Shown: piece after piece, positions 42,001 to 64,000 of the stretch | Layout: every line of letters starts with the position of its first letter | Position numbering within the stretch: position 1 is the stretch's first letter | Assembly (NCBI GenBank): GCA_951406725.2 | Contig: OX597833.1 | Location: forward strand, 992,001 to 1,056,000 | Direction: 5' to 3' | Source of the DNA: Octopus vulgaris | Lineage: Eukaryota | DNA length: 64,000 nt | Made by a program: the position numbers

Positions 42001-45000
42001 CACCAATCCAACTGACTTCTTTACCACTGCAGATATAAAATCAGAGGCGGCGACGATAGATTACATCGATATAAAGGAAGACGATGTAATAAAGGCTATA
42101 GATGAAATGAAAACAGACTCAGCTACTGACCCCGATGGATTCCCGGCAATCCTTCTAAAAGTATGTAAGAGAGTCCTAGCAAGACCACTGCAGTTCCCCG
42201 TTCAGAGCTTCCTTGCAGCTGGCAAACTTCCAAGAAAACTGAAGGAAGGTAAAATATGCCCTCTTCATAAAGGAGGTAGCAGAGCGGAGGCCAAGAACTA
42301 CAGACCTATCTCTCTGACCTCACACATCAGCAAAGTCATGGAACGAATAGTCAGAAGGAAACTAATCACCTTCCTTGAAGAAAATGACTTGCTGCCTGAC
42401 ACCCAACATGGTTTCCGACCAGGAAGAAGCTGCTTAACTCAGCTCCTACAACACTATGACTGGGTGCTGAAACGACTGCTCAACCACTCAAATGTGGAAG
42501 TGATATATCTCGACTTTGCAAAGGCCTTTGATAAAGTCGATCATGGAATGATGTCACAAACTGCGTGATCTTAGCATAGTTGGAAAACGGGGAGAATGGC
42601 TTCATGACTTTCTGAAAGATAGAAGTCAGGTGGTAGTAGCCAATGGAGCCACTTCCATTAACACGCAAATAGTGAGCGGTGTTCCGCAGGGCACTGTTTT
42701 GGGACCACTGCTGTTCATAATGGCCCTCTCAGACATGCCCTCAGCCACGCAGAGAGCCACGATCACAAGTTATGCAGATGATACAAAAGTTTCACAGGCA
42801 ATACAGAACCCTGAGGACACTAAACGCCTGCAATGTGAGCTGGACAAAATATACAAGTGGGCTGAAAAGAATAGCATGCAGTTCAATGCTGAAAAGTTTC
42901 AAGCTTTATGCTATCAGCATGCAAAACTAAATGCAATACCCAATGAATACACTGGACCTGGAGGAATTGCAATCCCAGAGGCACAATCAATGCGTGACCT
43001 GGGTATTTACATGAGTGATGACGCAACCTTTCGTGTTCATGTTGCTAAATTGGCAATGAAATGTAGACGACTGGCCGGATGGATTCTCAGAACCTTTAGA
43101 AGAAGAGAACAAGAAACCATGATGGTCCTCTGGAGGACACTTGTCCTAAGCCATTTTGACTATTGCTCTCAGCTATGGTCACCATCCAGTGCCAAGCTGA
43201 TCACAGACCTTGAAGCGATCCAACGTAGCTACACGAAGAAGATAGCCTCTGTGCAGCATATAAGCTACTGGGAAAGACTCAAGAGATTAAAACTCTATTC
43301 CTTGGAGCGTAGGCGAGAAAGATATGCCATAATATACATCTGGAAGATCCTGGAAGGACTTGTCCCAAACTTTGGCATCGAGAGTTACACAAATGCCAGA
43401 ACTGGGCGCCACTGCGTGGTGCCAATGACTCAAATTTGCCATCAAGATGTAGGACAAGATACTGTGATAGCCTGGGCTTCAGAGGCCCACAGCTCTTCAA
43501 TATCCTCCCGAAGAACCTAAGAGACCTGCATGGGGTGGATGCAGATGTCTTTAAAATGAAACTGGATCTCTTCCTGTCAGGTGTCCCAGATGAACCAACT
43601 TCACGGCAGGAGGTTCAGATGAGGGCAGCTGCATCGAACTCTCTCATGCACCAAATGGCAGTTGCTAAAAAGCATTCGTGAAGTAAAACCATGTAGCAAC
43701 ACCAAATGGCGGTGCCCCAGCATGGCCACAGCTCGTGAGCTGAAACTAGAATCAATCAATCAATGAATCATATATATATATATATATATATATATATATA
43801 TATATATATATATATATATATATATATATATATATATTGTTATATTTCGGAATGGTCATTTTGCCAGTTTAGCCAATAAAAACACACGCACTATATATTT
43901 GGTGTTACTTTGCTTCAGTGTTATTTATTTTTTACATTAATCTATATATAGTGCGTGTGTTTTTATTGGCTAAACTGGCAAAATATTTAAACGTATATAT
44001 ATATACACACACACACACACACACACACACACACATATATATATATATATATATATATATATATATATATATATATATATATATATATATATATACATAA
44101 CGTATATATATATATATATATGTAAGAATATATATGTAAGGTCTGATCAGTAAGTATCCGGACTGTTGCTATAGCTACAAAATTAAAGCACGGACGATAA
44201 AACCGCTTGGCACATATTGTCCTTGGACTCTGCTGTTTCAACTTTCTAGCTCACTTCCGCTGTTTACAGCAGTGCTTGGAAGGAAGGTGTGTAGCGTGTG
44301 ATCGTCGCATTAAGCATGACGAAGTTGAGCAGAGAGTTTGCATCAAATTTTGCGGAAAGCTTGGCGATACTTGCTCAGGGGCTTACGCAAAGTTTCCAAA
44401 AAGTTTTCATCGTTCTCGACACAATCAAGGACATCTTGTGCAAATGAAAACCGAAAGTCTTTTGGTTAGCTGAAAGCAGTTTTAGCACCAACTTGGCAGA
44501 CGCGCGTATCATGTCCAATTATTCAGCGATAATGAAATGAACTGAGCCGTAAATAATCTGCACATTCTCTGATAATTCACGGATGGTGATTGGACGATCT
44601 GCTGGTTGCGGGTCTCCCAGAACATTCGGCAATATCGACATTTTTTTGCCCTTCTTGGAAATGTCTGAACCACACAAACACTTGTGTGCAGCTCATACAA
44701 TGCTATCCATACACTTTCGGCAACTTTGCGTAGGTCTCTGGGCATGTATCGCCATAAAAACTTACTCTCGCATGGATGGTCAATGATAAGAGTACATGAT
44801 ACGCACCTTCCTTCCAAGCACTGCTGCAAACAGCAGAAGCGAACTAGTGTGTTAAATCTCAGTGCGCGCGCACTGCAGAGTTCAAAGCTTTGCTCTTTCT
44901 GCTTTAGCTTCGTCACTATGGCAACAGTCCGGATATTCATTGATCAGACTACGTATATATGTGCGTATGTGTGTGTGTATGTATGTATACTTGAACGTAC

Positions 45001-63000: not shown

Positions 63001-64000
63001 CCCTTTACACCATACATCATGACACTGTGATACACGATCCCTATTGATCGTTTTTTTACCTCTCCCCCTTTTTTCCTATTTTTTCTTCTTTTTTCATTTT
63101 TCTTTTCTTTTTTCCTTTTTTCTTTTTTTTTCTTTTCCTTTTTTTCTTCTTTTTTTCTTTTTTTTCTTTCCCCTTTTTTCTTTTCTTTTTTTCTTTTTCT
63201 TTTGTTCCTTTTCCCTTTTTTCTTTTCCTTTTTTTGTTCTTTTTTCCCTTTTGCGATCCTTTTGATCGAAAACCTACGCCACTTTTTTTTTCTCCCCCAA
63301 AAGAAAAGCTCTACCTTGTAACTTGTCCCATCTGTGTGCAGCCCTGTGTGGCCAATAAAGAAACTTATCTATCTATCTATCTATCTATCTATCTATCTAT
63401 CTATCTATCTATCTATCTATCTATCTATCTATCTATCTATGTCTGTCTGTCTGTCTGTCTGTCTGTCTGTCTGTCTGTCTGTCTGTCTATCTATCTATCT
63501 ATCTATCTATCTATCTATCTATCTATGGGTTTATATGCTCTCATTCGTAGGTGGAATATTGCTATTGAGAGAAACGGTGACTATGTTGAGGAGTAGGGAT
63601 GTGATACGCAGAGGACCAGCTTCATTTCGATGTATGATACATGTTCCTTTGTTGATGATTTTACCTGTCCTAAACAAAATGGCATTTCTTTTCGACTCAC
63701 TCTCGTATATATGTATTTGCAAGAAAAATACTTAGTTGGAAGAGAATGCGTGGCGTTCAATTATATGGTAATATAAATGATATATGTATATATATGCATA
63801 CATATGTATATGTATATATATATATATATAAATGTTTTTTTAATTTCTCCTCTGATTCCGGAATTACTACTATTTGCGGTTAGCCCTGGTTGCTATTTCT
63901 AGTGGGTCGAACGGCCTATTATAGCCGTTCCTCAATTTGTTGTTGTATATATATATATATATATATATATATATATATATATATATATATATATATATAT

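What the first reader, a model, noticed from the sequence alone, without database searches (positions are those of the whole stretch)
44715..64000. Genes 3 and 4 share an identical Ig1 but carry Ig2 exons that differ mostly by replacement changes
Seen: about 44.7-50.4 kb is duplicated at about 58.3-64 kb. Ig1 appears identical and intron 2 differs at very few sites outside microsatellites. In Ig2, the first ten substitutions are all non-synonymous (K/N, I/T, F/L, V/A, S/T, H/N, A/S, P/L, T/I, P/R) and the end is remodelled (IAKEMNDIGA vs LGIQMNA). Inference: either rapid selection on Ig2, or a recent conversion or unequal crossover that put the same Ig1 on a different Ig2, which would be combinatorial domain shuffling.
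Basis: partly seen in the sequence, partly recalled or inferred. Interest (0 to 1): 0.7.

Follow-up and report, generated by a model that had tools for sequence, protein, structure and literature searches.

The report
Octopus Ig-gene duplicate with decaying second domain
Two neighbouring copies of an uncharacterised octopus two-Ig-domain surface-protein gene are almost identical except for a short patch over the second Ig exon, and in one copy that exon is broken by a frameshift, so this looks like ordinary gene-family turnover and not a working new domain combination.

Summary
Block 44724-50395 recurs at 58299-64000. The Ig1 exons are identical (333 of 333 nt), intron 2 differs at 0.85%, and the Ig2 exons differ at 19 of 306 aligned nt. 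All ten listed replacements are real.

The "remodelled end" can only be read by changing frame.

The genes lie on the minus strand in a tandem array of at least five four-exon genes. Their only named relatives are uncharacterised Octopus sinensis and O. bimaculoides proteins. They have no Pfam match, but a confident model and PDB searches support two Ig-like domains.

The replacement:silent ratio (15:3) fits neutrality. Silent sites and the introns next to the exon are also 4-6 times more diverged than the rest. So the Ig2 region is an older segment set in a young duplicate, that is, a recombination or conversion mosaic. Twelve or thirteen of the changes whose direction could be inferred lie on gene 4's branch. 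They hit residues conserved across the family and are not concentrated in loops.

Best reading: mosaic origin plus decay of gene 4. The donor of the patch was not seen. Tandemly assembled haplotypes cannot be excluded.

The parts
44477..50395 (-). Copy A of the duplicated block. It holds gene 3 without its first exon and its 3' flank. The high-identity part starts at 44724. 44477-44571 matches copy B at 89.5%, and 44572-44723 is a 152-bp indel.
58209..64000 (-). Copy B of the duplicated block (gene 4). It runs off the window end, so gene 4's exon 1 is not visible.
50778..50898 (-). Gene 3 exon 1 coding part. ATG at 50898-50896 and GT donor at 50777-50776, leaving a phase-1 intron. It encodes a signal-like N-terminus with a Thr/Met run coded by an (ACG)n(ATG)n microsatellite.
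48277..48609 (-). Gene 3 Ig1 exon: 333 bp, AG acceptor and GT donor, phase 1 at both ends. It is 78% identical to the Ig1 of O. sinensis LOC118766831.
45791..46105 (-). Gene 3 Ig2 exon: 315 bp, open reading frame, phase 1 at both ends.
45078..45196 (-). Gene 3 exon 4 (C-terminal tail). A 1-bp deletion shared with gene 4 shifts the tail frame relative to genes 1 and 2. The result is a 39-residue tail that is still partly hydrophobic, in place of the 31-residue tail ending ...SLLFLVLASCR.
61919..62251 (-). Gene 4 Ig1 exon, identical to gene 3's at all 333 nt.
59362..59672 (-). Gene 4 Ig2 exon: 311 bp. It has 19 substitutions relative to gene 3, a 5-bp insertion and a 9-bp deletion, and a premature stop in the frame set by Ig1.
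59467..59471 (-). The 5-bp insertion in gene 4's Ig2 exon. It is a near-tandem copy of the adjoining bases and causes the frameshift. It is absent from genes 1, 2 and 3.
58649..58767 (-). Gene 4 exon 4. It has the same 1-bp deletion as gene 3, plus a 6-bp deletion and one Ser-to-Tyr change.
45384..46194 (-). Divergent patch in copy A coordinates (58955-59761 in copy B). It covers the Ig2 exon, about 90 bp of intron 2 and about 400 bp of intron 3.
45381..45592 (.). Degenerate 12-bp minisatellite in intron 3. It holds 8 of the 13 intron-3 substitutions, so it inflates the apparent length of the patch.
22276..28244 (-). Gene 2, an older paralogue used as outgroup. Exon 1 starts at 28244 (its end was not read off exactly), Ig1 25951-26283, Ig2 23236-23559, exon 4 22276-22370. 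Its Ig1 matches O. sinensis LOC118766832 at 110 of 110 residues. Its Ig2 differs from that protein at 6 of 107.
9086..16312 (-). Gene 1, an older paralogue used as outgroup. Exon 1 starts at 16312 (its end was not read off exactly), Ig1 13335-13667, Ig2 10145-10465, exon 4 9086-9180.

Best explanation
Genes 3 and 4 are the two youngest members of a tandem array of octopus genes on the minus strand. Each gene has four exons: a signal-like exon, an Ig1 exon, an Ig2 exon and a short hydrophobic tail exon that looks like a GPI-anchor signal.

Almost the whole 5.7-kb visible unit is a young duplicate, with about 0.65% divergence. A patch of roughly 0.6-0.8 kb centred on the Ig2 exon has an older common ancestor, with about 3-4.5% divergence at silent and adjoining intron sites.

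The pair is therefore a recombination mosaic. Either non-allelic gene conversion from an unseen family member placed a different Ig2 segment in gene 4, or conversion homogenised everything except that patch.

Within the patch nearly all amino-acid changes lie on gene 4's branch. They occur at the neutral ratio, hit family-conserved residues, and come with a frameshifting 5-bp insertion and a 9-bp deletion. Gene 4's Ig2 is therefore most likely evolving without constraint, either as a pseudogene or as a patch copied from one, while gene 3 keeps the ancestral, open exon.

Shown: the duplication, the patch, the frameshift, the branch asymmetry, the neutral N:S ratio and the Ig-like fold of the family. 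Inferred: conversion as the mechanism, its direction, the loss of function of gene 4 and the GPI anchoring.
For: Patch:
- Ig2 exon 19 of 306, adjoining intron 8 of 288, silent sites 3 of 67, against 22 of 3398 further away.
- Divergence falls back to 0 of 183 in 45201-45383. That means two boundaries, which fits a conversion tract.

Frameshift: gene 4's exon is 311 bp against 315 bp and reaches a stop after ...IPVQYSRYINTR. The insertion and the 9-bp deletion are absent from genes 1, 2 and 3.

Neutral ratio: 15 replacement to 3-4 silent changes, omega 1.06. Binomial p = 0.42.

Branch asymmetry:
- With genes 1 and 2 as outgroups, 12-13 exon changes are derived in gene 4, 1-2 in gene 3, and 4-6 are ambiguous.
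- In intron 3 the split is 4 derived in gene 4 against 7 in gene 3. Fisher p = 0.014 for the contrast.

Constraint:
- Gene 4 replaces F (present in 15 of 16 relatives), D (15 of 16) and T (10 of 16).
- Gene 3 carries the family consensus residue at 9 of 15 differing sites, gene 4 at 1 of 15 (p = 0.005).
- The differing sites are no more variable than other sites (Mann-Whitney p = 0.24).
- Ten of 16 lie in predicted strands, against 62 of 104 positions overall.

Patchy similarity elsewhere in the array: between genes 2 and 3, intron 3 is 94% and aligned intron 1 is 96% identical, but the Ig exons are 73-74%. A 198-bp stretch of gene 1's intron 3 is 94% identical to gene 3 while its neighbours are 78-91%.

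Family and fold:
- Hits only to uncharacterised Octopus proteins.
- AlphaFold model of the O. bimaculoides relative with mean pLDDT 82 and two all-beta domains.
- At least 500 Foldseek PDB matches at E <= 0.001. Of the 48 rows shown, 47 are Fab or antibody chains or complexes and one is PirB/LILRB3.
- Profile hits to PDB sequences are weak and mostly Ig-superfamily, the best being CD22 d6-d7 at E = 2.9e-4.
Against: - No donor for gene 4's patch is in the window. At the 12-13 derived sites gene 4 matches neither gene 1 nor gene 2. A search with gene 4's Ig2 fragment found no protein, which is weak evidence.
- A segment that simply had an older ancestor should have changes on both branches. The asymmetry needs an added rate difference.
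- The exon is about twice as diverged as its immediate flanks (p = 0.05). Replacement sites (15 of 236) exceed the flanks (8 of 288) at p = 0.055. Some positive selection on gene 4's branch, or on its donor's, before the frameshift is therefore not excluded.
- The frameshift could be an assembly error, and no reads were available to check it.
- Gene 3 itself has a shifted tail frame, so its own functionality is not certain.
Confidence: 0.55

Rival explanations
1. Positive diversifying selection acted on Ig2 after a simple duplication. Amino-acid change in gene 4's Ig2 was driven by selection for a new binding specificity, and the frameshift is either very recent or an assembly error.
For: - Replacement divergence of 15 of 236 exceeds the adjoining intron (8 of 288, p = 0.055) and is far above the distant background.
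- Nearly all changes lie on one branch.
- Ig2 is more diverged than Ig1 in every related pair examined: gene 2 against O. sinensis LOC118766832, 100% and 94.4%; gene 2 against the O. bimaculoides protein, 82.7% and 74.8%; gene 3 against LOC118766831, 78.2% and 61.5%.
- Omega among the older paralogues is higher for Ig2 (0.80-0.87) than for Ig1 (0.58-0.61).
Against: - Omega between genes 3 and 4 is 1.06, and the 15:3 ratio fits neutrality.
- Silent sites and flanking intron are raised too, which selection does not explain.
- The changes hit conserved framework residues and are not concentrated in loops.
- The exon has a frameshift and a 9-bp deletion.
Confidence: 0.15
2. One unequal crossover produced a hybrid gene. 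Everything 5' of about 46.2 kb (Ig1 and intron 2) would come from a gene-3-like parent, and everything 3' of it (Ig2, intron 3 and the tail exon) from a more distant parent.
For: A single maximum chi-square breakpoint at 46195 is highly significant. The side towards the gene's 3' end has 42 of 1456 sites differing, and the side towards its 5' end has 22 of 3399. The far 3' flank 44477-44571 is only 89.5% identical.
Against: - Divergence does not stay high 3' of the exon. It is 0 of 183 in 45201-45383, 1 of 89 in exon 4 and 6 of 382 in the 3' flank.
- The two copies share a 1-bp deletion in exon 4 that genes 1 and 2 lack. The tail exons are therefore closest relatives, not parts from different parents.
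Confidence: 0.1
3. The two copies are alleles (haplotypes) of one gene that the assembler laid out in tandem. The Ig2 difference would then be allelic polymorphism, and one of the alleles would be a null.
For: Background divergence of about 0.65-1% with many microsatellite length differences is in the range I recall for octopus heterozygosity. That figure comes from memory, not from a call. Copy B runs off the window, so its far end cannot be inspected.
Against: - The copies are separated by 7.8 kb of sequence that is not part of the visible repeat and contains gene 3's exon 1.
- There is no N run or other gap at either junction. The only N run is at 1819-1918.
- The array already holds older true paralogues at similar spacing.
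Confidence: 0.12

Closest known systems
Uncharacterised Octopus proteins LOC118766831, LOC118766832 and LOC118761863 (O. sinensis) and LOC106878953 (O. bimaculoides)
   Same: Same four-part layout: signal-like N-terminus with a Thr/Met run, Ig1, Ig2 and a hydrophobic tail. Gene 2's Ig1 matches LOC118766832 at 110 of 110 residues. Gene 3's Ig1 is 78% identical to LOC118766831.
   Different: No annotated protein in the searched sets matches gene 3 or gene 4 closely. The best is 78% in Ig1 and 62% in Ig2. Genes 3 and 4 also have a frame-shifted tail exon.
Primate KIR and LILR receptor clusters (comparison recalled, not tested here)
   Same: Tandem arrays of Ig-domain surface-protein genes. Non-allelic recombination and conversion make mosaics in which one domain exon is shared and another differs, and pseudogenes are frequent. 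PirB/LILRB3 is among the fold matches.
   Different: There is no sequence relationship beyond the Ig fold. These octopus genes have a two-domain layout with a GPI-like tail instead of a transmembrane and signalling tail. Function and ligands are unknown.
Biomphalaria FREPs, mollusc Ig-superfamily immune lectins said to diversify by point mutation and conversion (recalled)
   Same: A mollusc multigene family with one or two divergent Ig-like domains, each encoded by its own exon, and variable exons within otherwise similar genes.
   Different: No fibrinogen domain was found. None of the 276 open frames of 60 residues or more in the window matches it, and neither do the octopus relatives. Nothing here shows somatic change.
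Intron homogenisation with divergent exons, as described for MHC class I loci, and conserved introns with fast exons in snake-venom PLA2 genes (recalled)
   Same: Between older paralogues the Ig exons are the most diverged parts (Jukes-Cantor distance 0.28-0.37). The signal and tail exons (0.04-0.10) and intron 3 (0.06-0.15) are much more alike.
   Different: The cause is unresolved here. Only the alignable parts of the introns were compared, which biases them towards similarity.

Membership tests
Immunoglobulin superfamily (Ig-like domains) | Significant match to a curated Ig domain profile (Pfam ig, V-set, I-set, C2-set and related) | tested here: not met
   Gene 3's Ig1 and Ig2 frames give 0 families at E <= 1. 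None of the 276 window frames has an Ig match. The four named Octopus relatives give 0 families. Among 26 more distant relatives, only one (P0023) passes the Pfam 'ig' cut-off (24.0 bits against 21.8), and two more are marginal.
Immunoglobulin superfamily (Ig-like domains) | Beta-sandwich fold with matches to solved Ig domains | tested here: met
   Tested on the O. bimaculoides relative P0002, which is 62% identical to each of gene 3's Ig exons. The model has mean pLDDT 82 and two all-beta domains. Foldseek gives at least 500 PDB matches at E <= 0.001. Of the 48 rows shown, 47 are Fab or antibody chains or complexes and one is PirB/LILRB3, all at probability 1.00. Whole-chain TM scores are low (0.23-0.30) because the angle between the domains differs. 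Gene 3 itself was not modelled.
Immunoglobulin superfamily (Ig-like domains) | Two conserved Cys about 55-75 residues apart, a D-x-G-x-Y-x-C-type motif before the second Cys, and one domain per exon with phase-1 introns (features recalled) | tested here: met
   Ig1 has ...ITC... and ...DVGSYTC.... Ig2 has ...FRC......FRW... and ...IAC.... The exons are 333 and 315 bp and are phase 1 at both ends.
GPI-anchored surface protein | N-terminal signal peptide plus a C-terminal small-residue site followed by a hydrophobic stretch that ends the protein | tested here: inconclusive
   Genes 1 and 2 and three of the four Octopus relatives end in S-G-S...WFSVS.LSLLFL.LAS... No signal or GPI predictor was available. 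In genes 3 and 4 a 1-bp deletion replaces this tail with another, less hydrophobic one.
FREP (fibrinogen-related protein of molluscs) | C-terminal fibrinogen domain after the Ig-like domain(s) | tested here: not met
   No fibrinogen match in any of the 276 window frames or in the 30 family proteins scanned.
Processed or unprocessed pseudogene (gene 4) | A reading frame disrupted relative to intact paralogues | tested here: met
   The 5-bp insertion gives a stop within the Ig2 exon, and the exon length of 311 bp is not a multiple of 3. Introns are retained, so any pseudogene here is unprocessed. Whether the insertion is real in the animal could not be tested.

The most novel reading that the evidence does not exclude
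The array may be a cephalopod recognition-receptor family in which the Ig exons are actively kept or made different while the rest of each gene is homogenised. Frame-broken copies such as gene 4 could then serve as a reservoir of variant Ig2 segments that conversion copies into working neighbours. That would be a germline, or even somatic, diversification scheme comparable to pseudogene-templated conversion in bird antibody genes. The evidence does not exclude it. Exons are far more diverged than introns across the array. Silent exon divergence (0.36-0.52) exceeds the divergence of aligned introns. Ig2 differs while Ig1 is identical in two independent comparisons (genes 3 and 4; gene 2 and O. 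sinensis LOC118766832).
Probability: 0.1. Interest if true: 0.75.

Novelty: new member of a known kind. Interest (0 to 1): 0.35.

Why it matters
Little is known about cephalopod surface-recognition or immune molecules, and this family is unnamed and invisible to Pfam. A tandem array with conserved signal and tail exons and very divergent Ig exons is the pattern seen in recognition families elsewhere, so the family is a reasonable candidate for expression and binding studies. The specific finding, identical Ig1 with a different Ig2 in genes 3 and 4, is best read as routine birth-and-death and conversion, with one copy already broken. It also shows that a run of replacement changes is not evidence of selection until the frame, the silent sites and the flanking introns have been checked.

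Tried and rejected
- Pfam scan of 276 stop-to-stop frames of 60 residues or more. The only matches above the curated cut-off were reverse transcriptase at 41756-43517. There was no Ig, fibrinogen, chitin-binding or lectin domain, so FREP-like and VCBP-like readings were dropped.
- The first fold, with a 4-sequence alignment, was too poor to use (mean pLDDT 39.8). It was repeated with 26 rows.
- A search for a protein carrying gene 4's derived Ig2 residues found none. 22 candidates shared words and none scored. The tool itself says this is weak evidence.
- A donor for the patch was looked for inside the window. Genes 1 and 2 do not carry gene 4's derived states, and self-BLAST shows no other copy.
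- Domain shuffling across the family was tested with identity matrices for eight sequences, which show no clear conflict between Ig1 and Ig2. Trees were not built because the domains are short and the sequences few.
The family's taxonomic range beyond Octopus therefore stays unchecked.
- Five literature searches found no paper on this family. From one review, passages mentioning octopus were read, and they concern only protocadherins.
- No eukaryotic genome or read collection was available, so other copies in this genome, orthologous loci and read depth stay unchecked.
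Full report
**What the window is**

The window is 64 kb with 37% G+C, is rich in microsatellites and has one N run at 1819-1918. Translated exons match only uncharacterised proteins of Octopus sinensis and O. bimaculoides, so this is octopus DNA. Nothing in it was taken for human.

**Gene models**

I compared the 305-residue O. sinensis protein LOC118766831 with the six-frame translation of the window. I then read the junctions directly. This gives a tandem array on the minus strand. 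Each gene has four exons:
- A signal-like exon containing a Thr/Met run.
- An Ig1 exon of 333 bp.
- An Ig2 exon of 315-324 bp.
- A short tail exon. In genes 1 and 2 it encodes S-G-S followed by a hydrophobic end, which looks like a GPI signal.

The Ig1 and Ig2 exons are bounded by phase-1 introns at both ends.

| Gene | Exon 1 | Ig1 | Ig2 | Exon 4 |
|---|---|---|---|---|
| 0 | about 2640 (only this exon is in the window) | - | - | - |
| 1 | starts 16312 | 13335-13667 | 10145-10465 | 9086-9180 |
| 2 | starts 28244 | 25951-26283 | 23236-23559 | 22276-22370 |
| 3 | 50778-50898 | 48277-48609 | 45791-46105 | 45078-45196 |
| 4 | beyond the window | 61919-62251 | 59362-59672 | 58649-58767 |

Exons were searched one at a time.

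**Are the domains Ig?**

- Pfam gives nothing for the window's exons, for any of the 276 open frames of 60 residues or more, or for the four named octopus proteins.
- An exhaustive search with gene 3's Ig1 found 27 cluster representatives at E <= 0.001. Only one of them passes Pfam's 'ig' cut-off.
- A profile of 26 family rows hits PDB sequences weakly. The hits are mostly Ig-superfamily chains, and the best is CD22 d6-d7 at E = 2.9e-4.
- An AlphaFold model of the O. bimaculoides relative failed with 4 aligned sequences (pLDDT 39.8). With 26 it reached pLDDT 82 and showed two all-beta domains.
- Foldseek gives at least 500 PDB matches at E <= 0.001. Of the 48 rows shown, 47 are Fab or antibody chains or complexes and one is PirB/LILRB3.
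- The protein atlas's nearest clusters are also Ig-like.

The labels 'Ig1' and 'Ig2' are therefore justified by fold and motifs, not by any curated sequence family.

**The observation**

Self-BLAST and a MAFFT alignment confirm that 44724-50395 is repeated at 58299-64000. A further 95 bp to the left matches at 89.5%, across a 152-bp indel. Substitutions outside microsatellites:

| Region | Differences | Aligned sites | % |
|---|---|---|---|
| 3' flank | 6 | 382 | 1.6 |
| Exon 4 | 1 | 89 | 1.1 |
| Intron 3 | 13 | 590 | 2.2 |
| Ig2 exon | 19 | 306 | 6.2 |
| Intron 2 | 16 | 1884 | 0.85 |
| Ig1 exon | 0 | 333 | 0 |
| Visible part of intron 1 | 9 | 1271 | 0.7 |

Gene 4's Ig2 exon has a 5-bp insertion at 59467-59471, a near-tandem copy of the adjoining bases. 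It also has a 9-bp deletion near its end. The exon is 311 bp, and in the frame set by Ig1 it reaches a stop eight codons after the insertion. The 'remodelled end' can only be read by changing frame. Genes 1, 2 and 3 lack both indels.

Genes 3 and 4 also share a 1-bp deletion in exon 4. It replaces the hydrophobic tail seen in genes 1 and 2 with a different 39-residue tail. Gene 4's exon 4 additionally has a 6-bp deletion and a Ser-to-Tyr change.

**Selection or recombination?**

- With the insertion left out for codon register only, the exon has 15 replacement and 3 silent changes. The count is 4 silent if the 9-bp deletion is placed differently. Omega is 1.06. Fifteen of 18 is what neutrality predicts (p = 0.42), and ten of ten has p = 0.08.
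- The excess divergence is not limited to replacement sites. Silent sites (3 of 67) and the intron immediately flanking the exon (8 of 288, minisatellite excluded) are 4-6 times the distant background of 22 of 3398 (p = 0.012 and 0.0016).
- A maximum chi-square scan puts a breakpoint at 46195, and 0 of 1000 permutations reached its value. The densest interval is 45384-46050.
- Divergence returns to 0 of 183 in 45201-45383. The patch therefore has two ends, as a conversion tract would and a single crossover would not.
- Eight of the 13 intron-3 differences lie in a degenerate 12-bp minisatellite at 45381-45592, so the true tract may be nearer 0.6 kb.

**Which copy changed?**

I used genes 1 and 2 as outgroups. 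In the exon, 12-13 changes are derived in gene 4, 1-2 in gene 3 and 4-6 are ambiguous. In intron 3 the split is 4 in gene 4 against 7 in gene 3. Fisher p = 0.014 for the contrast.

In an alignment with 16 other family Ig2 domains:
- Gene 4 replaces F (present in 15 of 16), D (15 of 16) and T (10 of 16).
- Gene 3 carries the consensus residue at 9 of 15 differing sites and gene 4 at 1 of 15 (p = 0.005).
- The differing sites are no more variable than the others (p = 0.24).
- Ten of 16 lie in predicted strands, against 62 of 104 positions overall.

This is the pattern of lost constraint, not of focused change in binding loops.

**Against that reading**

- The exon is about twice as diverged as its immediate flanks (p = 0.05).
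- Replacement sites exceed those flanks at p = 0.055.
- A burst of adaptive change on gene 4's branch, or on its donor's, before the frame broke is therefore not excluded.

**Family context**

- Between the older paralogues the Ig exons are the most diverged parts of the genes, with Jukes-Cantor distance 0.28-0.37. The signal and tail exons (0.04-0.10) and intron 3 (0.06-0.15) are much closer.
- Genes 2 and 3 are 94% identical in intron 3 and 96% in aligned intron 1, but 73-74% in the Ig exons.
- Only alignable intron parts were counted, which favours similarity.
- Silent divergence in the Ig exons is 0.36-0.52. Omega is 0.58-0.61 for Ig1 and 0.80-0.87 for Ig2 when gene 4 is left out.
- Ig2 is the more diverged domain in every related pair. 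Gene 2 against O. sinensis LOC118766832 is 110 of 110 identical in Ig1 but differs at 6 of 107 in Ig2 (p = 0.013).
- Patchy homogenisation, with Ig exons that escape it or evolve fast, is therefore a property of the whole array. Genes 3 and 4 show its most recent instance.
- Identity matrices for eight sequences show no clear conflict between Ig1 and Ig2 relationships, so domain shuffling in the family's history is not shown.

**Verdict**

The duplication and the contrast between Ig1 and Ig2 are real. The best reading is a recombination or conversion mosaic in a young tandem duplicate, with gene 4's Ig2 unconstrained and already frame-broken. The donor of the patch was not found. The mechanism, its direction and the loss of function of gene 4 are inferences.

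**Left unchecked**

- Read depth and phasing.
- Other copies in this genome.
- Orthologous loci.
- Expression.

Five literature searches found no paper on the family.

Noticed in passing
window 50778-50898, 28119-28244, 16190-16312, about 2518-2640 (minus strand): Exon 1 of every gene contains an (ACG)n(ATG)n coding microsatellite. It gives a Thr/Met run of variable length inside the signal-like N-terminus. Gene 3 has the shortest run. The octopus database relatives show the same feature.
   Followed up: partly
window 23236-23559 and 25951-26283: Gene 2's Ig1 is identical in protein (110 of 110) to O. sinensis LOC118766832, while its Ig2 differs at 6 of 107 residues. This is the same 'identical Ig1, different Ig2' contrast seen in genes 3 and 4, in an independent comparison. 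Whether that protein is the orthologue, an allele or another recent duplicate could not be told.
   Followed up: partly
window 45078-45196 and 58649-58767: Genes 3 and 4 share a 1-bp deletion in the tail exon. It swaps the hydrophobic GPI-like end for a different 39-residue tail that is open in that frame. The same alternative frame is also open in genes 1 and 2.
   Followed up: partly
window 41756-43517 (+): Two adjoining open frames match reverse transcriptase (RVT_1, E = 8e-12 and 7e-13). This is a retroelement inserted between genes 2 and 3, and it accounts for part of the wider spacing there.
   Followed up: no
window 38517-40757, also 7790-8581 (minus strand): An inverted repeat, 38517-39271 against 40757-40004 at 94.5%, surrounds open frames that look like the end of a reverse transcriptase followed by a GIY-YIG-like motif. 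A similar 264-residue frame lies at 7790-8581. Pfam gave no match at E <= 0.01. The Penelope-like reading rests on recalled motifs only.
   Followed up: no
window 12299-13294, 47898-48182, 61447-61793: Intron 2 of genes 1, 3 and 4 holds a long (ATT)n-type microsatellite just downstream of the Ig1 exon. It is about 1 kb long in gene 1. Its length and interruptions differ between genes 3 and 4.
   Followed up: no
window 9344-9546 against 45530-45732: A stretch of about 200 bp in gene 1's intron 3 is 94-95% identical to genes 3 and 4, while its neighbours are 78-91% identical. This is a likely older conversion tract between distant members of the array.
   Followed up: partly
window 47130-47498 (minus strand), 60696-61064: Intron 2 of genes 3 and 4 contains a 122-residue open frame that resembles the C-terminal end of a LINE ORF2. 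The resemblance is recalled, and Pfam gave no match. The element was present before the duplication.
   Followed up: no
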